This document shows positions 15,254-57,520 of a DNA stretch of 64,000 bases, piece after piece. Position 1 is the stretch's first letter; every line of letters begins with the position of its first letter. This stretch comes from Lingula anatina. Its lineage: Eukaryota > Animalia > Brachiopoda. Below the pieces are notes generated by a model. It searched no databases. It was given only the letters and a program-made list of their open reading frames with translations, and was not told the origin of the DNA. Made by a program: the position numbers and the translations under genes. The stretch is from the NCBI GenBank assembly GCA_051362555.1, contig CM120643.1, positions 29,454,848 to 29,518,847 on the forward strand. The letters are read 5' to 3'.

Positions 15254-15269
15254 GTGACAAATGTGACAT

Positions 15270-15784: not shown

Positions 15785-15979
15785 GATCACACGCCTCCCC
15801 ACACGTCGTCCCTGAGGGGGGACAGTCATTAAATCTCATCTCCATTGGGACGACACATGGGGAGGCGTGTGAGAGGCGGAGAGACTATTAAAAGATTAGG
15901 CGGTTTTTATTTCATGTACGTCCGCCATATTTAGTCCCCAGGATTTGTAAAGCCTGGCTCATTCGTTGTGAATGCGATC
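15785..15979. mobile_element. Small MITE-like insertion (TAA duplication) with internal hairpin in the upstream region of copy D
   Basis: Absent at the homologous site upstream of copy A (24115-24130, GTTTAAGGGAGTGTTCC). Termini GATCAC...GCGATC flanked by TAA; internal inverted repeat TCACACGCCTCCCCA/TGGGGAGGCGTGTGA. Confidence 0.6.
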
Positions 15980-16604: not shown

Positions 16605-17940
16605 ATGGATATGTTTGCAGAAAAACCCTGGGGTAAGCGCCCTTACTGGGGGGTTGGGTTCAACTACGACCATCAGTGGGTGCTGACAGATAAACAGAGG
16701 GAACTGCAGGGCAAGCTGATGGAGCTGTGCCGAACGACGATGCGACCAAATGCCGTAAGTGACTTTTACATTACAACGCGGTTTTAAATTGTGTCTGTAA
16801 TTTATTTGTTTAAATGGGTTTAATCTAAAACATTAGTGATGTAAAAGAATAAGATGATACTGTATTTTTTTATTTTAAAAAGTGCCCAGACTACATTATT
16901 TAGCGCGAGTGTTTTTAATAACGCACAAGTGAGCCGATCATACAAATGACGTTACGTCATGCTCCAATGTCAAAGGGGCAGACGAAGTTGTGTGCTATTT
17001 AAATTCCATGAAGTAATAATTTTCTTTTTTATTTTGATGACATATGCCCATAGTTGCTGACTCCTAGATTTCCAAATTCAAGTTCACATTAACAATGCGA
17101 TATTGACGATGAATTGGTTATGTACTAATGCCTTTATTATTATTCCTCTTTTCTTTTATACTATTTATTCTGTCATGTTTTTCTAATGGTCGAGTGCATT
17201 TAACGCTTTCGCTGTCTCTGGTAGGAACCAAGCCGATAAGGCTGTCATCCTTTATCATATGAAATCTTGTTAACAGTACGATGCCTGGAGATACACTCTT
17301 GCTTAGCACTACTGACACACATAACTGCACAAAGTATGCTTACTTACTATCTTCTTCGAACCTTGGTCTCATTTTTACGAAGTACATGTATGAATATTAA
17401 AAAAATCTAGTAACGTTGTAAATTTATTTATTAATTGATATATTTTATTTATTTATTTACTTATCTCTGATTATCCGTGTCATGAATTTGCTTTATTGTC
17501 AGTATTCCCAGTGTTTTTAATAGTTTAGATATCGTATAATATAACGCGCATTGAGATATTGATGGAATGGACCATGATTAAGGAGTAGTTTTTTTTAAAA
17601 ATTATTTAAAATCATAACCTTAATGGTAACAGGAAGCAAATGTTTAAGTATGTTGCTGGGTTAATGTGTGGGGGGGTGGGGGCAGAAATAAATAAGCCAC
17701 AGATGAGGAAGGCCCTTCTTAGCCCTTGCTTCCTGATATACATTACATGTACGTTTGACAATGCTGAACAAAACGGTGGGAAGCTGGGCCCCTTAATTAA
17801 CCCCCGGTTCCCACACCATTCAATAAAGCATTGAAGCCCTTGTCTCAAGTTTATTTCACAATACCAATTCTCCATCCTCATCCCTGAATTTACACCTTAT
17901 AATCAGCCAGGTAAGATATGACGAGACATGTGAATTCTCA
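16605..17940 (+). pseudogene. ACAD-reductase copy D: intact exon 1, intron 1 and first ~27 nt of exon 2, truncated at a fold-back junction
   Basis: Exon 1 16605-16754 (MDMFAEKPWGKRPYWG...RPNA, donor GTAAGT); intron highly similar to intron 1 of copy A; exon 2 starts at 17911 and breaks at ~17938. Confidence 0.9.
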
Positions 17941-18700
17941 ATCCCCTAGTAAGGGCGGTTACCCCAGGGTTTCTCTGCAAACATATCCATGGTGCTTCAG
18001 CGCGATCCGACGATCTTTATAAGTGACGCGTTGTGACGAACTAAGTGCTTCGTTATAGTGTCTCTAGCTTGTCACCTGATCTACCGTCCTGGGATCCAGT
18101 TTCAAGGTTGTGGGCCGTGTGACAGACGCTACGGTGGTGTTTAAGGCGTGATAAGATTACTGTATGAGAGGGTCTCGCTGGAGGGGTCGTGATCACAGTT
18201 CACGGAAAATCAAAATCGTCAATTTAAAAAAAATATAGTATATAAAACTTTATTCAAAACTCACTACTTGTAATGCGAGTCAAAATACTGAAAATAATGA
18301 ATTACGAGGAATAATTACTTCGTTTCACGAGAAGTGAAGAATAAAACGACGCAATCATGAGTCAAGGGATAGGTGTGCTGCACGGGCCACGCTATATAAT
18401 ATGAACCTGTTCCGCATCTCAGGAAATAAAAAGTGTCTTTCACCGGTAACGAAAATCCCCTTCGGTCCCTTGTATGACATAATACCACTTGGAGTGAACT
18501 TAGATTCACACTTCGGTTGATTTTAACGTAAATATGTAAATAAAAAAGGCCTGAGATACTTGTCATCTTCAATGTTTATTCGACGGGTACTTGCGAGTCC
18601 TACGTACCGTGTATACCTACCAACTTGAAAGCAGGACTCTGTTCAACACACTAGGTGAATCAGTTGACCTTTTACATGATACATAGATGTTTACGATGTC
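17939..18700 (-). pseudogene. Copy E: inverted promoter, 5'UTR and first ~50 nt of exon 1
   Basis: ATG at 17990 (-), MDMFAEKPWGNRPY* (TGG>TAG); upstream sequence homologous to the promoter of copies A and C. Confidence 0.85.
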
Positions 18701-24971: not shown

Positions 24972-27900
24972 ATGGACATGTTTGCAGAAAAACCCTGGGG
25001 TAAGCGCCCTTACTGGGGGATTGGGTTCAACTACGACCATCAGTGGGTGCTGACAGATAAACAGAGGGAACTGCAGGCCAAGCTGATGGAGCTGTGCCGA
25101 ACGACGATGCGACCAAATGCCGTAAGTGACTTTTACATTACAACGCGGTTTTAAATTGTGTCTGTAATTTATTTGTTTAAATGGGTTTAATCTAAACCAT
25201 TAGTGATGTAAAAGAATAAGATGATACTGTATTATTTTATTTTACAAAGTGCCCAGACTACATTAATTAGCGCGAGTGTTTTTAATATGGCACGAGTGAG
25301 TCGATCATAATATGACGTTACGTCATGCTCCAATGTCAAAGGGGCAGACGAAGTTGTGTGCTATTTAAATTCCATGAAGTATCAATTTTCTATTTATTTT
25401 GATGACAAATGCCCATAGTTGCTGACTCCTAGATTTCCCAATCCAAGTCATGCTCCAATGTCAAAGGGGCAGACGAAGTTGTGTGTTATTTAAATTCCAT
25501 CCATGCGCATTAATTTTCTTTTTTATTTTGATGACATATACCCATAGTTGCTGACTCCTAGATTTCCTAAGTTCACATTAACAATGCGATATTGACGATG
25601 AATTGGTTATGTACTAATGCCTTTATTATTATTCCTCTTTTCTTTTATACTATTTATTCTGTCAGGTTTTTCTAATGGTCGAGTGCATTTAACGCTTTCG
25701 CTGTCTCTGGTAGGGACCAAGCCGATAAGGCAGTCATCCTTTATCATATGAAATCTTGTTAACAGTACGATGGCTACATCACTTAGCCCTGAAGATACAT
25801 TATTTGTACTTGCTAAGCGCTTCTGACACACATAACTACACATAGTATGCCAACTTACTATCCTCTTCGAACCTTGATCTCATTTTTACGAAGTACATGT
25901 ATGAGTATTCAAAAATCTAGTAACGTTGTTAATTTATTGATTAATTGATATATTTTATCTATTTATTTTTTTTTATCTCTGATTATCCGTGTCATTAATT
26001 TACTTTATTGTCAGTATTGGCAGTGTTTTTAATGGTTTAGATATCGTATAATATAACGCGCATTGAGATATTGATGGAATGAACCATGATTAAGGAGTAG
26101 TTTTTTTAAAAAATAATTTAAAATCATAACCTTAATGGTAACAGGAAGCAAATGTTTAAGTATGTTGGTGAGTGGAGGGGGGGTGGGGGTGGGGGCAAAA
26201 ATAATTTAGCCACAGATGAGGAAGGCCCTTCTTAGCCATTGCTTCCTGATATACATGTACGTTTGACAATGCTGAACAAAACGGTGGGAAACTAGGCCCC
26301 TTAATTAACCCCCGGTTCCCACACCATGAGTTAAACATTGTGGCCCTTGTCTCAAATTTATACCACAATACCAATTCTCCTTCCTCTTCCCTGAATTTAC
26401 ACCTTATAATCGACCAGGTAAGATATGACGAGACATATGAATTCCCAAGAGAAAACATGGACGCCATGGCGGAGCTGGGGCTGCTGGGATTGATTGTACC
26501 GAAGGACCTCGGTGGGCTGGGCGAGAACCACGTGTGTGCCGCCATGGTGGTGGAGACTATTGCCCGTTATGGGTGTCCCAGTACTGCTATGGTTTACTGT
26601 AAGTTAGGCCAAGTATAGGCCGGTGTGAACGGAATCCTGGTCCGCCTTAGGAATAGTAGTCCTAAATATATATAGGACTTCTATTCCTGGTGGACCTGCA
26701 TTCCGTTTACATAAGTCGGTGAAATGGAGGTCCGCCCTATTTTTATGTCCGTCCCTTTATATTACAACTAGGTAAAGGCCAGTGACATGAATAGTATGCT
26801 GAAGTGAGCATATATAATTAGTCCGTAAAATCGCAGACTTACCTGTTCGTCTCTCTGGCGTAGTGGTTAGGCAGTGCAACAATGTGCATCCAGAACAGTT
26901 TCTTAAAATAGACAAATGGGAGTACGAATCCCTATAAGGCTGAAGTTGCGTTTTTAAATTCTGCGTGATTTTGATATCTTTGCCATGTTTGTGGGCCATT
27001 TTACTTTGCCACGTCGGATAATTTTGATTGGTTACAGAAGCACCCAATTTGAAATTTTATCTGACAAATGAACAGGTCTACTAAAATGAAAATAAATTTA
27101 TCAAAACTTCATTTTTTTTTATTTTTCATTATTAATTTTTTGAATATCAAAATAATAAAGGTAACGACATAGGTCATTTTAATTCACACATATTATTATT
27201 TATCATATGTGACTTCCGATTAAGTGTGAGAGAAAAAGTCTAATCGGACATATAGTCCTAGTATAAATCAAGAAAACAGGTCCCATCCGGACTGGCACTC
27301 CTTGCCATGCGACTTGCATTCCTTAGTAAATGTTGTCCCACGGACGTTAAATCCTAGTAACGTATGTCCTAGGACATCCATTTCTAGAAACGCTAGACCT
27401 AGGACTACCATTCCGTTCACACTGCAACGTTCTGTTTGGAGAAATAAATTGGAATATCGCCCAGTGTCATTTATTTTTCATCTTGACAATATGAAATGCA
27501 AAAAGTAAAAAGAAGAAAAGATATTCTTCAGAATAAATATCCATTACCAACTTTTATATTGTTCACCAATTTTGTTAACTTAATATAGGGGTGAAAAAGA
27601 CTTTTAAAACAATCTTATATTAAAATTATTAACTCGTAGGACCCTCAAAACAACATTTTAGCTGTCTCTTTCATTTAACATTGGATTCCGGTATGTCATT
27701 TTAGGTATGCACGTTGGAGCAGTGGCTACTCTCCTATTCCGTTACGATAACAGCGAACTCATCAAAAATGTCCTCCAACGTTTGGACAAAGACAAGCTGG
27801 TGGGGACTGAGTCTTTTAGTGATCCCGCTACGGGTAAAAAGGCACATTATCTTTCTATCCGTGTATATAGTTATTTTATTATTATTTATTTATTTTTTGC

Positions 27901-28145
27901 GGACTACACTCGTGAGAAAATAGGTTTTATTTAAGTTAACATAAGTCGAAAGAGTCATAGCTGTTTGATTTCCATTCATTTTTCGTTTATCACATTATAT
28001 TATCTTTTCCACCTTTTTATACAACACGCATACTTTGCCATACGGCTTATGTGGTATTTCAAATACCCAGATCAGCAAAACCTTAATAATATTGATTAAA
28101 ACGTTTTCGGTTGAAGATATATCCGTTCTTAATGACATTATACGT

Positions 28146-28207
<62 letters not shown>

Positions 28208-31200
28208 ATCTCTTAGGTGGACATTTTTGGTACCCACTGTCCTCAAAGAACCGGTATACCAAGGATGGCAGGTTCCAAATGTTAAAGTACGCCTCCTGGA
28301 CAACCAGCGCCGGATTTGCTGACTTCTACGTCGTCCAAACCACTAGCCCGGGCTTTGGCAGCGACTATTCCGACCTTTCCATATTTCTGCTTTTCAAGGT
28401 GGATGTAGTTAAAATTCCAATTTTAAAAGTGATATTTGGCTGGAATCTGAAAAGGTGTAATTAGAGTTACCGCAAGCCAATATTAATAGGTGGTTAAAGA
28501 TTATGCCTATTAATTTTGTCTTTAATTTTTTTTTTGTTTATTTTGTTTATTTGAAAATGCATAGTTCACACGTGCACTAAAATGTTTTCCATGTACGACG
28601 GCTAATAAACCCATACGATATAGACGTTATTATGTAAAAATACATAAAGTTTACAGTCTCAATTGAATAATTTAGCCAATGTGCTAACTCATCAAACCAT
28701 AGCGTTTATCCATTACAAAAAATGTTACCTTTAAACTATAGGACGAAGTTCGTGCACATGCTGACGACTGGAAATCCCTAGGTCTCCGTGGTAACCAATC
28801 TGGCGTACTTATAACAGAGGGCGTGCTTAGTCAAGACAGGCAGGTTGGAGAAATCGGTAATTCAGTCATTCATCCTTGTGCGAAATGGCATAATAAAAAT
28901 GCGGTTATTCTCAATCGGATGCATAAGTAACAAATATGGGCGAAATATAATGTCTTGTTTATGAATCTAAATTCTGTTATTCTATTAATGTCTTTCTGAT
29001 CATTTAATTCACACATGAGCGTAGTATCTCTAAGCTATGAAGTTCATCAGTTTAGTTGTGAAGACTCAAGCATACAGACGCGTAATATGGCTAGTGGTAG
29101 TGTAAAACAAGTTGGAGGAAAATCAAAGGGGAAGTTGTTGTTGCACAAAATCGACAAACACATTTTTCAGAGCAACCGCGACCGCCATTTACTTTCTTAC
29201 TTATTACTGCTCATGCATCAAGGTATCAGAATCTCCTCCGAGCGCAGCCGAGAATTAATTACAGCTTTGGAAGTAACTTGCCCTCGCTGCCAGTAATTAC
29301 GCCGCCGGGTATCCAGGGCATAGACCGTGATCACAAGGTTCCGAAAATAGATTTTTAGATTTTTAGAAAATAGATTTTCCATGTGAACGGAGCCTTATTC
29401 CTGTAACACCTATGACAATAATGGAAAGTCTTATCCTTATGCATTAATACGGTTAAATGATACAATTAAAATTGTAAATGAAAATTCTTCTGGTGAACCA
29501 TATATAAGACAAAAATGGAGGGCGTGCAACTACAGCTCGTCTGTGTAGTGATTTGCGTGCAAGACCATAAGGTAAATATTTATGAAGAGGCCTGTTAAAT
29601 ACTTGGGTTTGATACCTACCTTTAACACGACCTTACCCCCCCCTCACCTCCCACCTTCACCTCGGATAACTTATTGTACCTAACTCTATATTGGTGTTTT
29701 TAATGTATAATGTTCTATATTATGTGATTATTACACTAACAACATTGTTTTTCGTTTTGTTTTTTAAGCCTCAAAATGCCAAAATATCAAAGGAATATAA
29801 CAGAACATTATATATAATTTCAAATTCCAAACTGTCTTGATTTGTTTTAAATCATCTATCCAAGAGCAACTTTCCATTGAGTTTGGGGTCATTTTGCAAT
29901 TCCTGCGAGTGTAAACCGAAAAATTAATCTAAGAACGGAGATCCTGTGTTTTGTGTAAAGTGATTTTTCCCTCATTTAAAGGCCTAAGAAGGTCAATGAC
30001 AGATGTAAAAATTTGCGTTTACTACAAGAAAAATACACGTAATAAAATAAATGAAGAAAAACTATGGGAACCATGTTTTTTTTATTACTTCATTAATACG
30101 CATATAAACACCGTAAAATATTAAAATAAAATTAAATAAAGCAAACGTTTATTATGTCTTTGAATCTAGCATATCTTTATATCTATTTATTCATGTCATT
30201 TCTCGGTGTAAACTAAATAGGACATGCGTCACAAAATTGTTAGGAACGCACGTCCCATTAGAACGTGCATTATAACACGCAGGACTTGCATTACATGGGG
30301 GCCTTCGTCCTAAGGACATTGAATCCTAGTAACGTATGTCCTAGGACTTCCATTCCGAGCAGTGCATGCCCTAGGACGTGCACTCCTGCCACACTGGTGC
30401 ACCCTTTACGCAACTTCATTTCAACATTTTTGGTGGGATATTTTCAACATGTTCTGGTGAAAGTTCTGGGTGGAATACAATTTTAAAAAGTCATCTCTGT
30501 CATGTATTTCATAGGTGAGGGTGCAGCTATAAACGATGAAGTTGGCAATCCGTGGTTCTTGCTACTGACTGCCTCCTGTTGGAACGGTATAGCCTTTGGT
30601 TGTATCGATGTTGCTTGCAAACATGCCACAGAAAAGGATCACGCTGACAACGGACTCCGAGTTTGCGACTATCCCACAATCCAGGTACGATGACGTCATC
30701 TGCACGTTTTCTGAATTCACGTGCGTTTACTTGAATTCTAACTTGAGTGGTCCTCTGTAGTTCTGCGCATGGGGCGGCTTAGCTTTTAAGCTTTAATTTA
30801 AAAATGTCGTCCTCTTGCAATTTTGATGTTGATTTTCCATATCTATAGACAACGCAAAATATCATCTCCCGTGTTGGTCAGTAAAGATGAAGTCTTCGAC
30901 GCTGTCTTTGTCCTGTTGGGCTACAATTTAACTCAATTGGAATAAGCACGCAAAAGCTACATAAGTACAATACAATATTGATTAATTATTAGCCTAACAA
31001 CGTGTACGAAAAAATGTACTGTACAAATCCGTTGATAAAGATACGTCGATTGAATGATGTCATTTGAAAGTTTAGAGGCTGCTTTGTACTCTATAACTCA
31101 TCTTCGGGATATTTTATTGTGCTACAAAAGAAGTATATTTCTGGGGCACTGCCAGTACTTCCTGACCTGCGAAGTGTATTTCTCAACAACAATTATGATT

Positions 31201-33231
31201 TACTCTATTCTAGGACTACTTCGGAGAGTGCATCATAGACACTAATGCCTGCCGAGCCTTTGTTTTCAATGTGGCCCATGGAATGGATTTGGCAACAAAT
31301 AATAATGATTGGACCATCCACAGTGATCCCAAGGTCATGGCAAGGTGAGAAAGTCAATGTGAGGCTGAGAGAAGTACTATGTTTGTGTGCAGTAAACTGT
31401 CCTACTGAGTACTACATGCATTCCATTTATATATAATAAGAAAATCATTTGAAAAACGTTTCAACATCTCAGTGTTGAAAACATTTATACTTATTTCATT
31501 CATTTCAGTCGCTTAAAAACAATTCTGGAAATATTCTAGAAAGAGCTGAAATTGTTAAGGACTATTTTTATTCCCAACTAAACGATATAATACTAAAACA
31601 TGGTGCCTATAATCGCTTCAGAACAGACTTCCTGCACTGGGGCTGGCAGATAAAGTTTGCAGCGGCCAAAAATGTCGGACATGTTTCCGATGTAATGCTT
31701 CACGCCTGCGGTGGTTCTGGATACAAAACAGAATTGGGTGAGTTTCAGTTCGAAATAAATAAGATGCACGAGCATTGCCTGAGCATAATATCTCCTTTCA
31801 AAAGATGAACATCTTTCGAATCCATCTACGCGGTCGACAAGAATGAAGTCTTTTCAGGTTGTGTAGGACATGGAATGGTATTCTTGTTTTATTCAAGAGA
31901 CTGTCTGAATTATACGTAATGCTATCAAACTAACAATCATTGAACTATCTACCTATGGGGAGCAAAATTTAATAACATGGCTATTCTTGCTCTTCTTTGA
32001 CTTATTGCAGGCATTGAGCGTCTTCTCCGAGACGCTAAGGCCGGCTGGGTGATGGGTGTGAGCAATGAGATCATACGGCAGTGGGTAGGAATCACGGCTC
32101 TCATGGGCACGGAGCAGCTGGATTTATGGTAGGTTGAGTTGATTTGCCAAACAATAACACCTTAGATGGTTAAATATAGAACCCGCGACCAAAACTTGGC
32201 TCCAACATAAAAATCATCCTCCATTTTTGACCGCCTTTCGACAGAAATATTAGATATTGTTACGCCTTCGCGGCCGAGTGCCTTATGAAGGTACAAATAA
32301 CAATGTACTTACTGGTGTCTCAGAGTATAAGCACAGAGAGAGTCAAGAACACAAAGCCAAATAGCCAAAGAGATCAGCCCCAAGAGAAGAGCAAAAGAGA
32401 GCGATTTATTTCACGTTACACCTTATATACTAGTTCAGATAGTACACGTTTACCAATCAGAACCAACTATACAGTGAACAGTTTTACCTTTAGGTTACCA
32501 ATCACGGGAGAGATTCAAACTTGCACACCGGACAACACTTTACTTACAGAGACATCTACCGGTAGCAATATAAAACAATCTCATCTAACACACTACATCG
32601 TCACAATATACCCGTCAATGAAAACTTGAAAATCTGACCGTCTTCTGGAAGACCCAAAAAACGGCCTAAATCCGCCCCCTGAATATGTTCTCAATAAATG
32701 AGTCGGACGTGATAAGATATCGAATTAACCTACCCGTATCTGGCAGAATTTTTGTCAGTTTCTCGCGTGTCAGTTTTAGTTCCTACTTCTGCTTTGTCTA
32801 CCTCGAGGGCCTGCCAAGGAAAGTAACATACTTTGCTTCTGCAATTCCCGTTTTATTTCCTTTTTCATTATCCCGTAGAGTTATTCCTCTATCTTTCAAC
32901 CCACGTGTGCTCGGACTATACCCTCCATCTTGGTTTGCAGTGACAGCCGGGTCTTCTTCTAAACAGTAGTATTCATCCATATGCAAATTGAGGCAAGTCC
33001 CAGAATCCCACGTATTGGAGAGTAATGGCGAGAAGTTTTGACGAAAAAAAATGCTGCGCTTTTTTTCTCTCAGTGATCTTAAAAACATGTCCTTTGATCT
33101 TTATTTTCTCAACGGTTTCGTTTGAGGTATGCCTTGGGGTTCAGGATAAAACAGGCAAAGTTTCAGAGAGACGCCTATTTAAGCGTCTACATACTTAGTT
33201 AATGCCAGATTGAGAAAAATGAAAATTTCAC

Positions 33232-33262
<31 letters not shown>

Positions 33263-35013
33263 CATGAATCCAATAAAAACAATAATCCAATAGAGCTGGT
33301 TTTCTTATTTGAGCTGTATGTCAAGAAGAGTAAGTGTCATGATTTAATTTTCTTAAATGGTCACTATGCAGGCTGTGTCCAAAACGGGGTTTACTTCAAA
33401 TTTGATGCAATATTACATAAAGCTTAACAGTATAATGACCATCAATTTTTGATAATAAAATAAAAGTATCATGGGTATTCAGAAAATGTGACTAGCAAAA
33501 ATCTTCAAGTCCATTTGTAACCCTCAAGTTTAGGTGTTTTTATCTCTCGTTAGGTTCGTCAAGGCTTTGGTGTCGTGCGCCTTTGCCGGAGACGAACTCA
33601 AAACGAAACAACCGAAATGATTACTCTATTAGTTTATTATGCAGGTTAGAAGTGGCCTGAGCGTCGGTCTTACAGTCGCTCGCTGATCTAAGGACTCCGT
33701 CAGCTTCGTATGTCCTTTCTCTCTCTCAATCTATCTCATCCAGCAATGAGACGACCTTTTATACTTGGCGGGGGAGAGCTCGTTAAAGTTTCATCAGACT
33801 TTGATACGTTTGATGTCGTAAGGACCGCTATTGGCGACTCTGTGTCTGCCCGAACGTCCTTTCTGGACTTTTCTCCTTGATACTCTTAAGATATCTTAGC
33901 GATTACGATCATCAAATCGATATCTGAGCCTGATTATCCTTTAATGAGTCGACCCTACCGCTTCCCTAACACAACTACTATTGTTCTTTGTTGGTGGCCT
34001 CTGATAAGGATCCACCATCATTAACCTTTTGTCGGTGAATCCTGATATGGCATTATTAACCCCGATACTCACAGTGCAATCTAATTTGCACGTTACACAT
34101 GGAAGTTCAGAGTCAAACCTTGGAAATGGCAAAATGTAAACAAGAGATAACTATAATGAAATGGGTTTATTTCCATTTTCAACACTTTTTTACATAACAC
34201 AAACTAATCGGTTTACTGTTATTTTTACATGATCAACTAAGAAAATTGTTGACATAGGAAAAATATCAACAGAACAATTTTAAATGTCCAATTTGCTCCA
34301 TTCTGAGATTCTGAACATACTGAATGATTGAATCTGACAAACTATAAAGATATGAGTTTATTTCCATTTTTGACACTTTATTACACAATACACAATAACA
34401 GGTTTATCATCATTTTATATAATCAACTAACAATATTGTTAAGATGCAGAAAATGTCAAAAGAACACCTTTACATATCTTATTAGTTTAAAAATTAGATT
34501 GTTAACATGCCTAAGAATTAAATCTGAGGAAAAAAAAACACTTATTAAAAAAAAAAAAAAAATTTACCGATTAAGCTTATTTTCGAATTTGATCTGTATT
34601 TTAGTAAGACTGATAACTCCTGTGAATTTCAAGACAATTGGCCAATCGATTTTCCACGAAATGTATTATCAGTGTTGCATACATGTATGCTGAAAAAAAG
34701 TGTAAAAACAGCATGACTTTTGTAAAAATGGCCCGATCATGCTGATTTTCGAACTTGACCTGCGTATTATGAATGTTCATCCGTTTAGTAAGTTTTAAGC
34801 CAAAAGGTAAAAGGGTTTTCCACTTATCATGTTATTGGTGTTGCACATATGCTCAAAAAGTGAGAAAAAAATCATAACTTCCATAAAAATGGCCCGGTCA
34901 TGCTGTTTTTTTTAACTTGACCTGCATATTATAAATATTCATCAGTTCTGTAAGTTTCAAGCCAAAACCTAAATTGGTTTTCCACTTATTGTGTTATCGG
35001 TGAAAGTACACTG

Positions 35014-35044
<31 letters not shown>

Positions 35045-36962
35045 AGACGCAGGTGATGGCTATATGTACAGACACATCTGCCAACTTTTTGTCAAATAAG
35101 AGCTACTGCTTTTAATTCATATTCTTTATGCACACAAATCAAACGCCCCATGAAAATACATACTTACATAGTTAAATTCAATTTGTAGGTCACAGAGAAC
35201 AAACAAGCGCCTTCTTAACTACGAGTTAAAGAAGCTGAAACCGGAGGTAAAGAAGGAGCTTGCGCACAAAATGCTGAGGGAGTGTGAGCAAGAGCTCGGC
35301 CAAGACAGCGGCACTGCGCCAAACCAAGATACTGACTTCGACGACCCTTTCTCCACATCTGCCGCCCTGCCTCTTGGCCCTTTCAAAGACCCCGCCGGTA
35401 AAGTCCACCTTGCTGCTTTAAACGCCGATACGTTTACCACCCTTAAGCTAACAGAGGTAATCCAAGAAGCAGACAATGTCCAGAGACTAAAATTCGCCCT
35501 GCCTGACCCAGAAGCCCACTCAGGTTGTCTGCCCGGTCAGTATGTGCAAGCACGTGTCAATGTTGGCGGGAAATTCCACGAGCGTTATCTGTCGCCCATG
35601 AGTGCTCCCACTGCGTTTGGTGTGATGGAGTTTGGGCTGCGCCTTGAGACGCATGGTGCGTTCTCCCTCGCTGTTAAGAATATGAAAATCGGTAGGTGCA
35701 CTTATCTTTTCTTATAGGACATAAAAGTGATATTAATATTATTGCTCATCATACTTAATAGGTAACATATTGGATGGCGCTGTCTTAATTATAATTAAGG
35801 TGATCTCTTTAAACTGATATGTGTATGGTTAGACATGAATACCCACGGTTTACTTTTCTTAAGTCTCGGTCACAAACGGCCGTATGGGCTCTTACGGGCT
35901 GGACGCGTCCAAATTTTGCGCAGAAACTCATGTCCCGCGCAGGGTCTTTTTACGCAATTTCGAGTTCGCAGACAGCGAAAGCTGTAAGCACGTACCGAGG
36001 ATGTTGGACATGTTCAAAAGATTCTACGTACAGCCTACGAACAGGGAGGCCGTAAGCGTAACTTGCTCCCCTCGCACGGAGTTAACAAGAAATACGCGCG
36101 TTGTGCAAGACGCACGTCGCAAGCAATGAAGAAGCAAGTGCCCTCTTACTGCGACCTCTACGGCCTCCGCAACACCCAAAAATCGCAGGGGACGAACAAT
36201 CCTGAAATTCGTGCGTCCGGTTGTGACCAAGGCTTTAAGCATGTGGAACGTTGTGCTTCATTTAAGTCATACGCCTGAATATTAATATTGTAGAATATAC
36301 GAAAAACGTTACGATGATATTCAAACTGATTTTTTTATTTTTTTTCAATAGACATAATGTGAAGCTACATTTTTGACAACGTTTGTTATATTTTATGCCA
36401 TGGAAAAAGCTACCAAAATACAATATACACTTACCTTATTTCAGGAGACACTCTAGAATGCCGAGGTCCATGTGGAGGTTTTGAATATTCCGCGGGAAAA
36501 CTGGATACTTTGACCATGATAGCCACCGGAGTCGGAGCCACGCCTGCCATACAACTTATCCGCAGCATCGCCAACGACCTCTCCGACACAACCAAGGTCA
36601 AGTTCTTCTACCACGCCAAGACGCCGAAGCAGCTATTATGCCTTGAGGAGCTTAGAGCATTTGGGAAACACGACAGTCGTTTCGATTTCACCTTCTGCGT
36701 TAGTGAGTGCGACGATACCTGGACTGGGACCGAGGGACTCATCGACGCCACCACTTTGAAACCGTTCCTGCCACCCGCCAACGGCAAGACCAACAAGACC
36801 ATCATCTGCACTGGTCCAGTAGTCGTAATCACTACCCTGTCTGCCCTTCATGAGCTTGGATACAAGAGCGACGACATCTACATCTATGGTCCGTTTGGAG
36901 TCGAGCTGATACGTGCCGTGTATGGCCAAAAAGCCAAACTTGCAACACATTTGCCCTGCTAG
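24972..36962 (+). CDS. Copy A: ACAD-fold flavoprotein fused to cytochrome-b5-reductase-like (FNR family) domain, 11 exons, 770 aa
   Basis: Exons 24972-25121, 26418-26598, 27705-27833, 28217-28398, 28742-28856, 30515-30684, 31214-31344, 31622-31737, 32011-32128, 35189-35691, 36445-36962; all GT-AG, phases compatible, 2313 nt open. ACAD motifs: ELGLLGLIVPKDLGGLG, SFSDPATG, SWTTS, LGLRGNQS, HACGGSGY, IERLLRDAK. Reductase motifs: FALP, PGQYV, RYLS, GAFS, GPCG, MIATGVGATP, CTGP. Kozak GCACCATGG. Confidence 0.9.
25323..25570. repeat. ~125-bp tandem duplication in intron 1 of copy A
   Basis: TCATGCTCCAATGTCAAAGGGG at 25323 and 25448; single in copy D. Confidence 0.85.
26624..27421. mobile_element. 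Non-autonomous Ginger1-like element in intron 2 of copy A
   Basis: TIR TGTGAACGGAAT ... ATTCCGTTCACA; left flank CCGG, right flank degenerate CTGC; empty site GCCGGAAACG in copy C (58711) and copy B. A related right end lies at ~30300-30393. Confidence 0.7.
28149..28204. repeat. (TA)n microsatellite just upstream of the exon 4 acceptor of copy A
   Basis: Direct reading. Confidence 0.95.
29270..29398. mobile_element. Right half of a Harbinger-type MITE related to 52913-53169
   Basis: GCCAGTAATTACGCCGC...GTGATCAC...CATGTGAACGGAGCC followed by TTA. Confidence 0.6.
32258..32605 (-). mobile_element. Solo LTR (348 bp) in intron 9 of copy A
   Basis: TGTTACG...CGTCACA termini with a perfect ATAT 4-bp duplication; AATAAA on minus strand (~32405-32410). 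Confidence 0.7.
33516..34097 (-). mobile_element. Solo LTR (582 bp) nested in the dispersed repeat in intron 9 of copy A
   Basis: TGTAAC...GTTACA termini, flanks CATT/CATG; absent in the homologous repeat at ~4110; minus-strand TATAAAA (~33757-33763) upstream of AATAAA (~33633-33638). Confidence 0.75.
35862..36234. mobile_element. PIF/Harbinger-type MITE in intron 10 of copy A
   Basis: TIR AGTCTCGGTCACAA / TTGTGACCAAGGCT, TTA duplication; empty site in copy B (~47595-47610). A related fragment lies at ~42010-42240. Confidence 0.8.
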
Positions 36963-40320: not shown

Positions 40321-40321
40321 A

Positions 40322-41600
40322 AGATTATATATATATTACTAAAACTACTCCTTATGGTGCATTCCATTAAAATCTCATTGCGCCTTAAAAATATCTAAAA
40401 ATATTAAAAACACTGACAATACTGACAATAAGTGAGTAAACGACACGGATAATCAGATAAAAATATATGCATTAATAAATCAATACATAAAATATATTAA
40501 TAAATAAATTAATTAAAAATGTTACTAGATCTAGATTTTGGAATTCTCATACCTGCCCATGTGAAAATGAGACCAAGGTTCGAAGAAGATAGTAAGTAAG
40601 CATACTTTGTGCAGTTATGTATGTCAGTAGTGCTAAGCAAGAGTGTATCTCCAGGCATCGTACTGTTAACAAGATTTCATATGATAAAGGATGACACCCT
40701 TATCGGCTTGGTTCCAACCAGAGACAGAGAAAGCGTTAAATGCACTCGACCATGAGAAAAACCTGACAGAATAAATATTATAAAAGAAAACAGGAATAAT
40801 AATAAAGGTATTAGTACATACAGTAACAAATTCATCGCATCGATATCGCATTGTTAATGTGAACCTGGATTTGGAAAACTAGGAGTCAGCTACTATGGAT
40901 ATAATTATGACATCAAAAAGAAAATTGATACACATGGATGGAATTTAAATTCGTCTGCCCCTCCTGACATTAGAGCGTGACGTAATGTCATATGTATACT
41001 CAACTTACTCATGCTTTGTATGATGCTATTTTAAAAACTCGCGCCTTTGAATGTAGTCTGGGCGCTTTTTAAAGTAAAAAAGATTACAGTATCGTTTTGT
41101 TGTTTTACAACACTAGTGGTTTAGATTAAAGTCATTTACACAAATCAATTACAGACACAATTTAAAATCGTGTTGTAATGTAAAAGACACCGCATTGGTC
41201 GCATCGTCGTTCGACACAGCTCCATCAGCTTGGCCTGCAGTTCCCTCTGTTTATCTGTCAGCACCCACTGATGGTTGTAGTTGAACCCAATCCCCCAGTA
41301 AGGGCGCTTACCCCAGGGTTTCTCTGCGAACATATCCGTGGTGCTTCAGCGCGATCCGACGATCTTTACAAGTGACGCGTTATGACGAACAAAGTGCTTC
41401 TTTATAGAGTCTCTAGCTTGTCACCTGATCTACCGTCTAGGGGTCCAGGGTCAAGGTTTTGGATCGTGAAACAGATGCTGTGGTGTGATTAGTTTTCCGT
41501 ATGACAGGGTCCCGCTGGGGGGGGGGGGGGGGTCGTTTTCACAGTTGACGGAAAATTAGGGTAAAGGTTGTGTATCGTGCTATTGGTATCATTTGATTAA
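40322..41600 (-). pseudogene. Copy G: B-like promoter, exon 1 with destroyed splice donor, and part of intron 1, truncated at the Gypsy fragment
   Basis: Exon 1 41333-~41190 (MFAEKPWG...), first ATG mutated to ACG as in copy B; GTAAGT donor deleted; 40322-41180 is a direct repeat of 52640-53720 lacking the 52913 MITE. Confidence 0.9.
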
Positions 41601-42239
41601 CATCAGAGGTCGTGGAGGTAGAGGAAAGTCTGTCTTGCGAGTTGCAAGGGTCAGATTATATGTCCTTTCAAGCAGAACGCTTATTGCAAGGAGCGATGGA
41701 CGTGGAAATTGTACTCATTTCTTGAGTTTGTCTTGCTTCTTGTGTACGTGGCACACACTCACCACTTACGAAGGGAATACAACGCACGGCGAAAGTAGTG
41801 CTCTTTTGCGTCAGTTTTGCTTCACACTTGCCTCACACGTTTGTGGTGACGTACTGACGGCGTACGCCAGTTTTGCTTCCCGTTTTCCTTTTTTTCTTAT
41901 TCCTCCTCCCTTTTTTCTACTATGTAAGCTTCTTTCTATTGCCTTTTGGAGGCATATCAGAAACTAAATTGAGAAAAAATTTGAAAATTTTGAAAATTGT
42001 TGTACACGTTACACAGTCGATGTTCATTGTAAAGACACAGGCGTTCGTCGTGAGCACGCCTTTCATACACCAGGCGTGGGGGTGTCGCACGTGCGAAGCA
42101 TTCCCGGTGTGCTCTCGACTTTGTTCGTTAGTTGTGAGGGCGTGCGCCTTACTCAATGGTACTTGTTCATTCATTGCTTGAGACGTGCATCTTGCACAAC
42201 TCGCGTCTCTCTTGCTAACTCCGTGCGAGGGTAGCAAGT

Positions 42240-42452
42240 TACTAAAATTCGCACTGCCTGACCCAGAAGCCCACTCAGGTTGTCTGCCCGGTCAGTATGT
42301 GGAAGCACGTGTCAATGTTGGCGGGAAATTCCACGAGCGTTATCTGTCGCCCATGAGTGCTCCCACTGCGTTTGGTGTGATGGAATTCGGGCTGCGCCTG
42401 GAGACGCATGGCGCGTTCTCCCTCGCTGTTAAGAATATGAAAATCGGTAGGT
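42240..42452 (+). pseudogene. Orphan 3' part of exon 10 (reductase FAD-binding subdomain)
   Basis: LKFALPDPEAHSGCLPGQYVEARVNVGGKFHERYLSPMSAPTAFGVMEFGLRLETHGAFSLAVKNMKIG plus donor GTAGGT; near-identical to exon 10; preceded directly by a Harbinger-MITE fragment. Confidence 0.9.
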
Positions 42453-46870: not shown

Positions 46871-49800
46871 CTAGCAGGGTAAATGCGTCGCAAGTTTGGC
46901 TTTTTGGCCATACACGGCACGTATCAGCTCGACTCCAAACGGCCCATAGATGTAGATGTCGTCGCTCTTGTATCCAAGCTCATGAAGGGCGGACAGGGTA
47001 GTGATTACGACTGCTGGACCAGTGCAGATGATGGTCTTGTTGGTGTTGCCGTTGGCGGGTGGCAGGAACGGTTTCAAGGTGCTGGCGTCGATAAGTCCCT
47101 CGGTCCCAGTCCAGGAATCGTCGCACTCGCTAACGCAGAAGGTGAAATCAAAACGACTGTCGCGTTTCCCAAATGCTGTAAGCTCCTCAAAGCACAGCAG
47201 CTGCTCCGGCGTCTTGGCGTGGTAGAAGAACTTGATCTTGGTTGTGTCAGAGGGGTCGTTGGCGATGCTGCGGATAAGTTGTATGGCAGGCGTGGCTCCG
47301 ACTCCGGTGGCTATCATGGTCAAAGTATCCAGTTTTCCCGCGGAATATTCAAAACCTCCACATGGACCTCGGCATTCTAGAGTGTCTCCTGAAATAAGGT
47401 AAGTGTACATTGCATTTTTGGTAGTTGTTTCCATGGCATAAAGAATATACACACATTTTCAAAATATAGCGCCCAACAATTTGTGTCTGTCAATGAAAAA
47501 AAAAAAACAGTTTGAATATCATCGTATTTTTTTTAGTATATCTACATTATTAATATTCAGACTTATGGTTTAAATGAAGCGCAGCGATCCACATGCATAA
47601 AAAAGTAAACGGGGAGTGTTGACTTTTAACCATACACATATCAGTTTAATGAGGCTACCTCTATTATAATGAAGAGAGCGTCATCCAAAATGTTAACTAT
47701 TAAGTTTGATGAGCAATAATATTAATATTACTTTTATGTCCTGTAAGAAAATATAGGTGCACCTACCGATTTTCATATTCTTAACAGCAATGGAGAACGC
47801 GCCATGCGTCTCTAACCGCAACCCGAACTCAATCACACCAAACGCACTGGGAGCACTCAAGGGCGACAGATAACGCTCGTGGAATTTCCCGCCAACATTG
47901 ACACGTGCTTGGACATACTGACCGGGCAGACAACCCGAGTGGTCTTCTGGGTCAGGCAGGGCGAATTTTAGTCTCTGGACTTTGTCTGCTTCTTGGATAA
48001 CCTCTGTTAGCTTAAGGGTGGTAAACGTATCGGCGTTTAAAGCAGCGAGGTGGACTTTACCCGCGGCGTCTTTGAAAGCGCCAAGAGGCAGCGCGGCAGA
48101 TGTGGAGAAAGGGTCGTTGAAGTCGGTGTCTTGGTTTGGCGCTGTGCCGCTGTCTTGGCCCAGCTCTTGCTCACACTCCCTCAGCATTTTGTGCGCAAGC
48201 TCCTTCTTTACTTCCGGTTTCAGCTTCTTTAACTCGTAGTTAAGAAGGCGCTTGTTTGATCTCTGTGACCTACAAATTAAATTTAACCATATATGTTTAT
48301 TTAAATAAAGCGTGTGACTTGTATGCATTAAAATATGAATTAAAAGCAGTAGCTTTTATCTGTCTTTTTTCAATTCAAACCTTGATTGGTGGCACAAACG
48401 AACTGAACACCAAAAATCTTGGTTAAATAAGATAAAGTTGCTAATGGTCTAAAATATTAGTCATTTCTTACTTTCTTTTATGATACTGGCGATACATTTT
48501 TTTAAATGGACCACATGAATCTTTCTACTTGAGACAAAACGAGTACATTGTGTACGCAAGATTTTGATTTTTATGTTGTAGCCAAGTTTTGGTTGCAGGT
48601 TCTTTATGTAACCAGCCCCTGGTGTTATGGATTGGCAAATCAACTCAACATACCAGTAATCCAGCTGCTCCATTCCCATGAGAGCCGTGATTCCTACCCA
48701 CTGCCGTGTGACCTCATTGCTCGGACCCATCACCCAGCCGGCTTTGCCGTCTCGGAGAAGACGCTCAATGCCTGCAATATGTCATTAATTATATATGTTA
48801 CTTAACATAGGCAGTTAGGTCAAGGATTGTTAGTTTGATCGCATTACGTATAATTCAGTTAGCCTCTTGAATCAAACGGGGATACTATTCCATGTCCTAC
48901 ACAACCTGAAAAGACTTCATTCTTGTCAGCCGCGTTTAAATGGTTTCAAGTGATGTCCATCTTTCGAAAGGAGAAACTTTGCTCAGGCAATGCTCGTGTA
49001 TCTTGTTTATTTCGAACTGCAACTCACCCAATTCTGTTTTGTATCCAGAACCACCGCAGGCGTGAAGCATTACATCGGAAACATGTCCGACATTTTTGGC
49101 CGCTTCAAACTTTATCTGCCAGCACCAGTGCAGGAAGTCTGATCTGAAGCGATTACAGGCACCATGTTTTAGTATTATATCGTTTAGTTGGGGATAAAAT
49201 AGTCCTTAACAATTTCAGCTCTTTCCAGAATATTTCCAGATTTGTTTTTAAGTGACTGAGATGAATGAAATAAATGTAAATGTTTTCAACATTGAGATGT
49301 GGAAACGTTGTTCAAATGATTTTCTTGTTATATGTATCTGGAATGCGTGTAGTAGGACGAGTTACTGCTCTGAAACGTAGCCCGTTCCTAAGTCTCACTT
49401 TGACCTTCTCACCTTGGCATGACCTTGAGATCATTGTGGATGGTCCAATCATTATTATTTGTTGCCAAATCCATTCCATGAGCCACATTGAAAACAAAGG
49501 CTCGGGAAGCATTGGTTTCTATGATGCACTCTCCGAAGTAGTCCTAGAATAGAATATATATATAACATAATTGTTGTTGAGAAATACACTTAGCAGGTCA
49601 GGAAGTACTGGTAGTGCACCAACAAGTTACTTCTTTTGTAGCACAATAAAATATCCCGAAGATGAGTTATAAAGTACAAAGCAGCCTCTAAACTTTCAAA
49701 TGACATCATTCAATCGACGTATTTTTATCAACGGATTCGTACAGTACACTTTTTTCGTACAATTATTTATACTTCGCCTGAAATACAATCTCGCTCACGT

Positions 49801-52800
49801 TTCCTGTAACTCGTTAGGCGAATAATTGATCAACACTTATGTACTTATGTACTTATGTAGCTTTTGCGTACTTATTCCATTTGAGTTAAATTTTAGCCCA
49901 ACAGGACAAAGACAGCGTCGAAGACTGAAGACTTCATCTTTACTGACCAACACGGGAGATGATATTTTTCGTTGTCTATAAATATGTAAAACCAACATCA
50001 AAATCACAAGAGGGCGATACCTAAGCTGCCCCATTCGCAGCACTACGGATGATCACTCAAGTTAGAACTCAAGTTTACGCACGTGAATTCAGAGAGACGT
50101 GTAAATTACGTCATCGTACCTGGATTGTGGGATAGTCGCAAACTCGGAGTCCGTTGTCAGCGTGGTCCTTCTCCGTGGCATGTTTGCAAGCAACATCGAT
50201 ACAACCAAAGGCTATACCGTTCCAACAGGAGGCAGTCAGCAGCAAGAACCACGGGTCGCCAATTTCATCAGTTATGGCTGCACCTTCACCTGTACAATTA
50301 ATGAAAGCGATGACTCTAAAATTGTATTCCACCCAGAACTTACACCAGAAAATGTCGAAAATGTCCCACTAGAAATCTTTAAACGAAGCCGCGTAATGGG
50401 TGCACCAACATAAAATAGAAATAAAAAACAAAACAAAAAACAAAACAAAAAACAAATGTTATCTTAATCAATACACCCCTATCTAAAACCGTTCAAAAAT
50501 TGATGATTAATATATCAAGTTATTAATTTCTTATCTTTACCATTAGGCGAGAAACTCAAAATTTTGTCAACAATTTTGGTTAATGTCTGAATTACCGAGT
50601 TCTCCAACCTGCCTGTCTTGACTAAGTATGCCCTCTGTTATAAGTACGCCAGATTGGTTACCACGGAGACCAAGGGATTTCCAGTCGTCAGCGTGGGCAC
50701 GAACCTCGTCCTATAGTTTAAAGGTAACATTTCATGTAATGGATAAATGCTGTGGTTTGAACAGTTAGCACAGTGAATTATTCAACAGAGACTACTTTTT
50801 AGGTAAATTTTACATGATAAAATGTTTATATCGTATCAGTTTATTAGAGGTTTATTAGCTGCCGTAAAACATTGTTTTAGTGCACGTGTAAATTATGCAT
50901 GTTCAAAAAAAAAAAAAAAAAAAAAACGAAAATGTTTTGAAGGCAAATATGCATAATCGTTTTTTAACCACCTATCAATATTGGTTTGCGATAAATCAAA
51001 TGATATCTTTTCAAAATCCGGACAAATATTAAAGTCGAGATTGGAATTTGAACTATACCAACCTGGAACAGTAGAAATATGGAGAGGTCGGAGTAGTCGC
51101 CGCCAAAGCCCGGGCTAGTGGTTTGGACGACGTAGAAGTCTGCAAAACCGGCGCTGGTTGTCCAGGAGGCGTACTTTAATATCTGGAACCTGCCATCCTT
51201 GGTATACCGGTTCTTAGAGGACAGTGGGTACCAAAAATGTCCACCTAGAAAACATCATAATTATACATGTATGATACGCGTAATGCCAATTATTAACGAC
51301 CAAATCTTCAATCGAAATAGTTTTAATCGATATCATTCAAGTACTACTGATGTTCTAGGCATGTGTATTTAAAATACCACATCAGCTGTATGACAAAGCA
51401 TGCGTGTTGTATAAAAAGATGGGAAAGATAATGTTATGTGATAAACGGAAAATAAATGGGAATCAAACAGCTACGACTCTTTCGATTTATGTAAACTTAA
51501 ATAAAACCGATTTTCTCACGAGTGTAGTCCCCAAAACATTTAAATAAATAATAATTAAATAAATATATACACGGATAGAAAGATAATGTGCCTTTTTACC
51601 CGTAGCGGGATCACTAAAAGACTCAGTCCCCACCAGCTTGTCTTTGTTCAAACGTTGGAGGACACTTTTGATGAGTTTGTTGTTATGGTAACGCAGTAGG
51701 AGAGTAGCCACTGCTCCAACGTGCATACCTAAATTGACATATCGGAAGCCAATGTAAAATGAAAGAGACAGCTAAAATGTTGTTTTGAGGGTTCCAACGA
51801 GCTAATAATTTTGATTGTTTTTAAAGTAATGTTAACGCTTTATTAGTTAACAAAATTGGTGAACAATATTACAGTTAATAATGGCCATTTATTCTGAAGA
51901 ACATCTTTTCTTCTTTCTAATCTTTGCATATTATATTGCCCCAGATGAAAAAGAAATGACACTGGACCATATTCCAATTTATTTTATCAACTAGAATGCT
52001 TTTCCGGCCTAAAGATGGCGCTATACTTACAGTAAACCATAGCAGTACTGGGGCACCCATAACGGGCAATAGTCTCCACCACCATGGCGGCACACACGTG
52101 GTTCTCGCCCAGCCCGCCGAGGTCCTTCGGTACAATCAATCCCAGCAGCCCCAGCTCCGCCATGGCGTTCAAGTTTTCTCTTGGGAATTCATATGTCTCG
52201 TCATATCTTACCTGGTTGATTATAAGGTGTAAATTCAGGGATGAAACTGGTGAATGTAAATCTCTTTACAACTTCTTGAATCTATGTGCATGTTGTTCAT
52301 TTGCGAATATCCATGGGCAACTGTTGGTATTATGATTTAATCTGAGCGATAATTCGCAGACATGAACCACAAAGGACCATAACGCTTAACTCACAGGTGT
52401 GGGAACGGGAGGATAATTAAGAGGTCAGTGATGAGACCTGAAAATGATATACATGGCAATTAATCGGGGGTTAATTATGGGGCCAACCCCCCCCCCCCCC
52501 CCCCCCAACCTTTTGTTCAGCATTGCCAAACATATATCGGGAGCAAGGGGGCAAGAAGGGTCTTCCTCTTCTGTGGCTAATTTATTTCTGCCCCTCCCCT
52601 CCCTCCAACATACTTACATTTGCTTCCTGTTACCATTATGATTATATATATTACTAAAACTACTCCTTATGGTGCATTTCATTAACATCTCATTGCGCCT
52701 TAAAAATATCTAAAATTATTAAAAACACTGACAATACTGACAATAAGTGAGTAAACGACACGGGTAATCAGATAAAAATAAATGCATTAATAAATCAATA

Positions 52801-57449: not shown

Positions 57450-57520
57450 TATAAAGAAGCACTTAGTTCGTCACAACTCGTCACTTATAAAGATCGTCGG
57501 ATCTTACTTAAGCACCATGG
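57450..57520 (+). promoter_or_regulatory. Predicted core promoter of copy C: TATA box, Inr-like element and strong Kozak
   Basis: TATAAAG at 57450, TCACTT ~30 nt downstream (57481), GCACCATGG at the start codon; the same layout is conserved in B, E, F and G, with a CATAAAA variant in A. Confidence 0.5.

What the first reader, a model, noticed from the sequence alone, without database searches (positions are those of the whole stretch)
24972..36962. Animal gene encoding a fused ACAD-fold oxygenase-like domain plus flavin reductase: candidate self-sufficient group D flavin monooxygenase
Seen: the spliced ORF joins an ACAD-fold domain to a cytochrome-b5-reductase/FNR-like domain in one 770-aa protein, conserved in three intact copies. 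Manual alignment to MCAD puts Gly at the catalytic Glu376 position (RDAKAGWVMGP/VSNE vs RDAKIYQIYEGT). The helix-G alternative (IVD/LCAD Glu) and the conserved neighbouring Arg appear as F and L (PWFLLLTAS). Established: ACAD-fold proteins lacking these Glu include group D flavin monooxygenases (DszC, HsaA, nitrososynthases KijD3/DnmZ, which have a similar RD.RAG.FM.P and W..LG.R pattern) that need a separate NAD(P)H:flavin reductase. Inference: the fused reductase supplies reduced flavin in cis, giving a cytosolic single-chain oxygenase; no mitochondrial presequence or PTS1 is evident. It could act in N/S-oxidation, aromatic hydroxylation, detoxification or secondary metabolism. I know of no characterised animal enzyme with this architecture.
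Basis: partly seen in the sequence, partly recalled or inferred. Interest (0 to 1): 0.9.

Follow-up and report, generated by a model that had tools for sequence, protein, structure and literature searches.

The report
Animal one-chain candidate trimethylamine oxygenase
This brachiopod gene fuses an acyl-CoA-dehydrogenase-shaped domain that lacks the usual catalytic glutamate to an NADH-type reductase domain, and because its bacterial counterparts sit where trimethylamine monooxygenase normally sits, it likely gives crustaceans, worms, brachiopods and corals a previously unrecognised way to oxidise trimethylamine to the protein-stabilising osmolyte TMAO.

Summary
The gene is real: 11 GT-AG exons, 770 aa, no internal stop. 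RNA reads join the ACAD exons to the reductase exons. The closest proteins are from Lingula anatina (94%). The same fusion occurs in an annelid, many crustaceans and corals. Corrections: only two copies are complete in the window, and the helix-G residues were misread by one position.

They lie directly upstream of TMAO demethylase (tdm) in 73 of 73 testable actinobacterial loci, usually with an HpaC-type flavin reductase. In a 301-genome sample the same 10 genomes hold both genes, and none holds the known trimethylamine monooxygenase Tmm. Two loci carry dimethylamine monooxygenase alongside, which favours the Tmm step.

Best reading: a self-sufficient ACAD-fold flavin N-oxygenase, TMA to TMAO. 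This is inferred, not assayed. This copy has private changes at predicted pocket positions, so its own substrate may have shifted.

This scan noted the bacterial half at least 13 times on other DNA, but not the animal fusion. Ten literature searches found neither.

The parts
24972..25121 (+). Copy A exon 1 (start codon; aa 1-50)
   Evidence: RNA joint 25121>26418 GT..AG, 126 reads in 3 of 4 runs
26418..26598 (+). Exon 2, ACAD N-terminal domain
   Evidence: Pfam PF02771 E 2.9e-13
27705..27833 (+). Exon 3 (invariant S149, D150)
28217..28398 (+). Exon 4 (invariant H156, W181, T183; family-specific HFWYP loop)
28742..28856 (+). Exon 5
30515..30684 (+). Exon 6, helix G (E261, W266, F267; no catalytic Glu or Arg; private D264N)
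   Evidence: RNA joint 6>7
31214..31344 (+). Exon 7
   Evidence: RNA joints 6>7 and 7>8
31622..31737 (+). Exon 8
   Evidence: RNA joint 7>8
32011..32128 (+). Exon 9: G407 at the ACAD catalytic Glu position, M406; private P408V, V412I, T413I
35189..35691 (+). Exon 10: end of the oxygenase domain, linker, FAD-binding domain of the b5R-type reductase (R563-x-x-S566-P, G587-x-x-S590)
   Evidence: 9>10 joint in RNA, with run X5 loose ends matching the copy A junction
36445..36962 (+). Exon 11: NAD-binding domain, conserved C-terminal tail, stop codon
   Evidence: RNA joint 35690>36444 GT..AG, 97 reads in 3 of 4 runs
46871..53870 (-). Copy B: complete 11-exon paralogue, 93% identical to A, same exon lengths
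57517..63923 (+). Copy C: exons 1-10, open; exon 11 lies beyond the window
16605..17941 (+). Truncated duplicate: exon 1, intron 1 and 31 nt of exon 2
41195..42446 (.). Rearranged fragments: exon 1 (minus strand, 41337-41195) and the 3' part of exon 10 (plus strand, 42241-42446)

Best explanation
The gene encodes a spliced, transcribed 770-residue fusion of a catalytic-Glu-less ACAD-fold domain and a cytochrome-b5-reductase-type domain, which likely works as a cytosolic single-chain flavin monooxygenase oxidising trimethylamine to TMAO. Shown: gene structure, fusion, transcription across the junction, loss of both ACAD catalytic Glu positions, intact reductase motifs, and the place of the bacterial orthologues in methylamine gene clusters. 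Inferred steps: (1) the C-terminal domain takes hydride from NADH (acidic residues follow the specificity strand; b5R rule recalled) onto FAD; (2) reduced flavin, or its electrons, reaches the ACAD-fold domain in cis, replacing the separate HpaC-type reductase of bacteria; (3) the reduced flavin reacts with O2 to a C4a-hydroperoxide; (4) the distal oxygen goes to the amine nitrogen, held by conserved aromatic residues (H156, W158, F267, W404) and E261. No tdm-like partner was seen in the window, so TMAO would be the end product (osmolyte or TMA detoxification). Rough odds: oxygenase of small N/S compounds 0.8; TMA as the family substrate 0.65; TMA as the main substrate of this copy 0.55.
For: The neighbour gene passes the NCBIfam TMAO-demethylase cut-off (1170 and 1175 bits against 1100). 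It starts within 500 bp downstream, same strand, in 73 of 73 genome loci with at least 1 kb of downstream DNA. In 301 sampled Actinomycetota genomes the same 10 hold both genes, and Tmm is in 1 other genome. In 251 class-level genomes: ACAD-like 24, tdm 21, both 20, Tmm query 0. Tmm is in 1 of 48 ACAD-bearing genomes, with both plasmid controls positive. In Paracoccus the order is tmm-tdm-dmm; L153 reads dmmA-dmmB-dmmC-ACAD-tdm and L147 dmmC-ACAD-tdm, and Tmm is in 0 of 160 loci. Flavin reductase is in 54 of 61 long genome loci. A 30%-identical relative lies next to sfnG and ssuD. ACAD-fold group D enzymes oxidise DMS and DMSO with a separate reductase (PMC13352529, passages). The fused eukaryotic proteins form one side of a branch (SH-aLRT 99 in both trees), and many keep the bacterial pocket motifs. 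Crustaceans contain TMAO (PMC9511220 and PMC4584349, passages). dN/dS between copies is 0.24-0.32.
Against: No enzyme assay exists. DmmC is also missing from 48 of 48 ACAD-bearing actinobacterial genomes, and a TMAO-permease-like gene is in 41 of 80 loci (177 bits, under the 690 cut-off), so those cells could import TMAO and use this enzyme on dimethylamine; only 2 of 160 loci separate the two steps. Tmm is rare in the phylum anyway (1 of 301), so its absence is weak as an exclusion statistic. The 80 genome loci are close kin (82-100% identical) and not independent. In the metagenome set only 12 of 55 loci have tdm directly downstream, and 7 of 11 long loci have it at all. Fold searches rank true ACADs (Z 43-46) above group D oxygenases (Z 34-39). 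b5R domains normally keep their FAD bound (recalled), so flavin hand-over is unproven. Copy A carries D264N, P408V, V412I and T413I, and all Lingula copies differ from the family motif at several pocket columns. Amphipods have FMO genes that authors assume make TMAO (PMC9511220). I found no data on TMAO in Lingula.
Confidence: 0.55

Rival explanations
1. Same two-domain oxygenase chemistry but another substrate: dimethylamine (standing in for Dmm), DMS/DMSO, or, in these diverged Lingula paralogues, other amines or thioethers handled in detoxification.
For: DmmC absent from 48 of 48 ACAD-bearing genomes. Known Tmm also oxidises DMS, and group D Dms1-3 oxidise DMS and DMSO (PMC13352529 passages). 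Animal duplicates repeatedly change pocket columns, and coral and Lingula copies all deviate. Three tdm-less bacterial members sit by mgs/gmaS genes only.
Against: L153 and L147 have Dmm genes directly beside the ACAD gene and tdm. A PhyH-family dioxygenase in 58 of 80 loci could cover the dimethylamine step (inference). No sulfur-assimilation genes recur in the 160 loci.
Confidence: 0.25
2. Copy A is a decaying or impaired duplicate in an unstable cluster; the function lies with copies B and C or another paralogue.
For: 26 private substitutions, four at or near conserved pocket columns. The window holds at least six gene fragments. The apparent counterpart in the public Lingula annotation is split into two models, P0232 and P0234.
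Against: Open 770-codon frame with all splice sites canonical; dN/dS 0.24-0.29 against B and C. In run X5, 15 reads join exons 9>10 in a variant form and 7 loose ends match the copy A junction and not B or C. Other family members tolerate V, L or A at position 408.
Confidence: 0.08
3. An NADH-driven reductase: the b5R domain feeds electrons to an ACAD-fold active site that reduces a substrate such as an N-oxide or an enoyl compound, without oxygen.
For: A fused NADH-oxidising domain fits any reductive direction, and the fold is closer to ACADs than to known oxygenases.
Against: Reducing TMAO would compete with the co-located demethylase for its substrate. The bacterial partner is most like monooxygenase reductase subunits (StyB, HpaC, HsaB models). 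There is no acid/base at either ACAD catalytic position.
Confidence: 0.07
4. A non-canonical acyl-CoA or acyl-carrier dehydrogenase or lyase, using E261 as an alternative base, with the reductase domain as a built-in electron sink.
For: E261 is E or D in 92 of 92 homologues. The best sequence and structure hits are ACADs; databases annotate it that way.
Against: None of 135 recurrent neighbour families matched ETF, acyl-CoA ligase, hydratase or thiolase. Every NCBIfam ACAD model scores far under its cut-off (best 228 against 600). No mitochondrial presequence.
Confidence: 0.05

Closest known systems
Group D two-component flavin monooxygenases with the ACAD fold (DszC/TdsC, HsaA, C2 of p-hydroxyphenylacetate hydroxylase, DnmZ, Rv3094c, Acinetobacter Dms1-3)
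   Same: ACAD fold without the catalytic Glu; bacterial members paired with an HpaC-type reductase gene; heteroatom oxygenation is known in this group (PMC13352529).
   Different: Identity is only 17-24% and named family models are far under cut-off. Met replaces the His recalled for DszC and C2. The animal form is one chain with an unrelated, b5R-type reductase.
Tmm, bacterial trimethylamine monooxygenase (class B FMO; NCBIfam NF058570), and animal FMO3/FMO1
   Same: Same gene position before tdm (against 36, 76) and the same inferred reaction.
   Different: Unrelated fold and sequence; Tmm binds FAD and uses NADPH in one active site (PMC13352529), whereas this protein would need a separate reducing domain.
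Acyl-CoA dehydrogenases (MCAD, IVD, SCAD)
   Same: Best structural matches, Z up to 46.5, rmsd 1.8 A.
   Different: Both catalytic Glu positions and the helix-G Arg are lost; no ETF context; no presequence.
NADH-cytochrome b5 reductase (FNR family)
   Same: The C-terminal domain superposes at TM 0.87-0.89; FAD- and NAD-binding motifs conserved in 36-39 of 39 fused proteins.
   Different: No membrane anchor; fused behind an ACAD fold; ends in a conserved tail of about 25 residues specific to this family.

Membership tests
Group D flavin monooxygenase | Acyl-CoA dehydrogenase fold | tested here: met
Group D flavin monooxygenase | No ACAD catalytic glutamate | tested here: met
   G/A at 407 in 92 of 92; W/F/Y mostly at 266
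Group D flavin monooxygenase | Reduced flavin supplied by a separate NAD(P)H:flavin reductase | tested here: inconclusive
   Reductase gene adjacent in bacteria; in the animal protein a different reductase is fused; flavin transfer not testable
Group D flavin monooxygenase | His stabilising the C4a-hydroperoxyflavin just before the ACAD Glu position (recalled for DszC and C2, not universal) | tested here: not met
   M406 invariant in 92 of 92; the equivalence of positions is recalled, not from a call
Group D flavin monooxygenase | Groups with characterised members by sequence or structure | tested here: inconclusive
   5Z8T 'flavin-containing monooxygenase' Z 39.1 and Foldseek rank 2, but ACADs rank higher; HsaA, DszC and SfnB models far under cut-off
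Group D flavin monooxygenase | O2- and reduced-flavin-dependent monooxygenation | not testable with these tools
   needs an assay
Acyl-CoA dehydrogenase | Catalytic Glu at either known position | tested here: not met
Acyl-CoA dehydrogenase | ETF or beta-oxidation gene context; mitochondrial targeting in animals | tested here: not met
   0 of 135 recurrent neighbour families; no N-terminal extension
Tmm / class B FMO | FMO fold and NF058570 match | tested here: not met
   P0001 and P0107 do not match NF058570 at E 1e-8; the fold is ACAD
Tmm / class B FMO | Position in a tdm methylamine cluster (works-like test) | tested here: met
   bacterial orthologues
Tmm / class B FMO | Oxidises TMA to TMAO | not testable with these tools
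   needs an assay or knockout
NADH-cytochrome b5 reductase-like domain | FAD_binding_6 plus NAD_binding_1 with RxxS/TP, GxxS, GxGxxP and CG motifs | tested here: met
   Lingula copies have C-T-G-P where 35 of 39 have C-G-G-P

The most novel reading that the evidence does not exclude
Invertebrates from corals to crustaceans and brachiopods make TMAO with an FMO-independent, soluble, single-chain enzyme: an ACAD-fold trimethylamine monooxygenase shared with bacteria and fused once, before cnidarians and bilaterians split, to a b5-reductase domain. It would be the first animal ACAD-fold monooxygenase I know of, and possibly the soluble trimethylamine monooxygenase activity reported long ago in calanoid copepods (Strom 1979/1980; recalled, not seen here).
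Probability: 0.5. Interest if true: 0.9.

Novelty: new variant of a known kind. Interest (0 to 1): 0.8.

Why it matters
TMAO is a main protein-stabilising osmolyte and piezolyte of marine animals, and in invertebrates its synthesis is assigned to FMOs by analogy with mammals (for example PMC9511220). A second enzyme, now annotated as 'uncharacterized', 'acyl-CoA dehydrogenase' or 'b5 reductase', would make that question directly testable with one recombinant protein. It would also close the missing first step of methylamine catabolism in many soil and marine bacteria that have tdm but no tmm, and would supply a self-sufficient N-oxygenase scaffold.

Tried and rejected
No whole genome is held for the window, so FMO content and other paralogues in this animal were not examined. 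No indexed RNA holder was listed; runs came by species label, and run X1 gave almost no exon coverage. Reads are mostly 90-99% alike, so most cannot be assigned to one copy. Joints 3>4 and 4>5 were not among the rows shown (187 rows hidden); 2>3 and 5>6 appeared only as joints with other letters between. A guessed accession for Tmm (NF053775) was the wrong family. A class-level tdm search around G001 found only the centre genome, 1 of 151, under a too strict threshold, and was not used. The FMO-like gene in G005 is not Tmm (122 bits against 675). The careful tree did not finish; both trees are quick SH-aLRT trees. The root rests on two long outgroup branches, so gene transfer from bacteria to animals is not established; 31 near-redundant rows were dropped. 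Fold searches did not separate oxygenase from dehydrogenase. No complex prediction was run. Literature: 10 full-text searches returned no paper on this family or fusion; subscription papers are not covered and no supplements were read. PMC13619132 (passages) does not mention an ACAD-like partner. Aromatic hydroxylation and secondary metabolism were set aside because no such genes recur beside the orthologues.
Full report
Observation. Exons taken by coordinate splice to 2313 nt, 770 aa, with every intron GT-AG and no internal stop. The window holds a complete inverted paralogue B (53870-46871; 93.2% identical), a paralogue C cut by the window edge after exon 10, and at least six fragments. dN/dS between copies is 0.24-0.32. 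'Three intact copies' is therefore two complete and one open as far as seen. Pfam on single exons and on the 94%-identical RefSeq protein P0001 gives ACAD N and C domains plus FAD_binding_6 and NAD_binding_1. The P0001 model has pLDDT 84.9 and pTM 0.84 and matches both b5 reductases and ACADs.

Transcription. On copy A coordinates, joints 1>2, 6>7, 7>8 and 10>11 appear with GT..AG ends in 3 of 4 runs. On copy B coordinates the 9>10 joint, which links the ACAD part to the reductase exons, appears in 4 of 4 runs (10, 33, 32 and 13 reads), about as deep as the other joints, with even coverage over both domains. Reads are mostly 90-99% alike and so come from other individuals or copies. In run X5, however, loose ends match the copy A junction at 25 of 25 letters and differ from B and C. 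The refutation 'transcripts stop before the reductase' is not met.

Distribution. The closest proteins are Lingula anatina LOC106180161 and its tandem neighbours. Fused 760-790 aa homologues are named from Owenia, Montipora, Porites, many decapods, a stomatopod, krill, an amphipod, an isopod, barnacles and an ostracod. The ESM Atlas cluster has 142 members, all eukaryotic, commonest Arthropoda. Only the best 120 of 1140 hits were listed, so the range is a lower bound. Unfused proteins of about 467 aa, 55-60% identical, occur in Actinomycetota, Cyanobacteria and Proteobacteria. Fused proteins form one side of a branch (SH-aLRT 99) with coral, spiralian and crustacean subgroups. The root is unresolved.

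Active site. Alignments to solved ACADs put M406-G407 against Y-E, and W266-F267 against the helix-G columns that end in the conserved Arg. Across 39 fused and 53 bacterial proteins, position 407 is always G or A; M406, F267, H156, S149, D150, W181, T183 and W275 are invariant, and E261 is E or D. Reductase motifs are kept. Structure search does not decide function: ACADs score Z 43-46, group D oxygenases 34-39.

Bacterial context. Among the best 80 of 565 genome loci, the next gene is TMAO demethylase: present in 76 of 80, and directly downstream in 73 of 73 loci with enough DNA. A flavin reductase is in 57 of 80, a PhyH dioxygenase in 58, mgsC in 41 and an amine permease in 41. Among the best 80 of 296 metagenome loci, mostly short, the tdm N-terminal query hits 28 and the reductase 39; among the 11 long ones, 7 and 5. 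In unbiased samples the two genes coincide: 20 shared of 24 ACAD-like and 21 tdm among 251 genomes, and the same 10 of 301. Four of those 10 overlap the first sample, and one is the centre genome. Three of the four tdm-less cases still sit beside mgs/gmaS genes. Conversely, 139 plasmids carry tdm, no plasmid carries a close ACAD-like gene (4 hits near 30%), and both tdm plasmids that I opened carry tmm. No ETF or beta-oxidation family was among 135 recurrent neighbours.

Which step? The canonical route is TMA to TMAO (Tmm), to DMA (Tdm), to MMA (Dmm) (PMC5520151, passages). DmmC is also absent from the 48 genomes, so the gene could fill either gap. Two loci discriminate: dmmA-dmmB-dmmC-ACAD-tdm and dmmC-ACAD-tdm, while Tmm is in 0 of 160 loci. 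Cyanobacteria-like loci read PhyH-ACAD-copper amine oxidase-tdm-amt, four enzymes for four steps if PhyH takes DMA (inference). For Gram-positive methylotrophs it has been proposed that one monooxygenase does both steps (PMC5023230, passages), which may apply here too.

Transfer to the animal. The function is carried over by orthology, by bacterial-type pocket motifs kept in many animal members, and by the reductase fusion replacing the reductase gene. Crustaceans hold TMAO (PMC9511220, PMC4584349; passages). Against this: animal duplicates repeatedly alter pocket columns; copy A has private D264N, P408V, V412I and T413I; its apparent public counterpart is split into two gene models; and FMOs are an alternative source of TMAO. 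A soluble TMA monooxygenase in Calanus is recalled only (one search found no paper).

Novelty. Ten searches found no paper on the family. Of the papers opened I saw the abstract plus passages of PMC13352529, and passages only of PMC5023230, PMC9511220, PMC13619132, PMC7997507, PMC5520151 and PMC4584349. Earlier notes of this scan reached the same reading for the bacterial genes (13 findings, 8 shown). I had reached mine before looking, and they are not independent support. No note covers the animal fusion. Verdict: a real gene, a new variant of a known kind, with a specific and testable function at about even odds for this copy; interest 0.8.

Noticed in passing
L042:11838-12695, L155:4722-5669 and 58 of 80 loci L001-L080: A PhyH-family 2-oxoglutarate dioxygenase follows tdm where Dmm is absent, and is not seen in the two short loci that have Dmm (L147, L153). 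It is a candidate new dimethylamine demethylase, relevant to the DMA bottleneck described in PMC5520151.
   Followed up: partly
L156:32-8639, L157:6908-15515: Cyanobacteria-like operon PhyH - ACAD-like oxygenase - copper amine oxidase - tdm - ammonium transporter: a possible complete route for using TMA as a nitrogen source.
   Followed up: partly
L172, L173, L174: A divergent actinobacterial subclade (62-66% identical) lies beside mgs/gmaS genes without tdm in the stretch read; it may act on another methylamine.
   Followed up: partly
L006:12644-13618: The actinobacterial partner reductase is a flavin reductase fused to a cyclic-nucleotide-binding domain.
   Followed up: no
L182:3832-6182: A 30%-identical ACAD-fold relative lies directly after sfnG in a Methylocystis plasmid sulfur cluster, on three plasmid records.
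   Followed up: no
window 15100-20100 and 40300-42450: Several inverted and truncated pieces of the gene (exon 1 four times, parts of exons 2, 7 and 10) show a rearrangement-prone cluster.
   Followed up: partly
window 46912-46972: Runs X4 and X5 hold reads from a further, more distant paralogue that match only a 60-nt piece of the last exon.
   Followed up: no
window 9474-10775, minus strand: A 433-codon open frame for a cysteine-rich, probably secreted or membrane protein; no Pfam match at E 0.001.
   Followed up: partly
window 32200-35100 (intron 9 of copy A): The intron is 3 kb against about 0.39 kb in copies B and C, and is filled with repeats that are abundant in RNA reads from elsewhere in the genome.
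   Followed up: no
P0098: A 688-aa unplaced protein joins the ACAD-like domain to a DUF1989 piece; either a true fusion with tdm or an assembly artefact.
   Followed up: no
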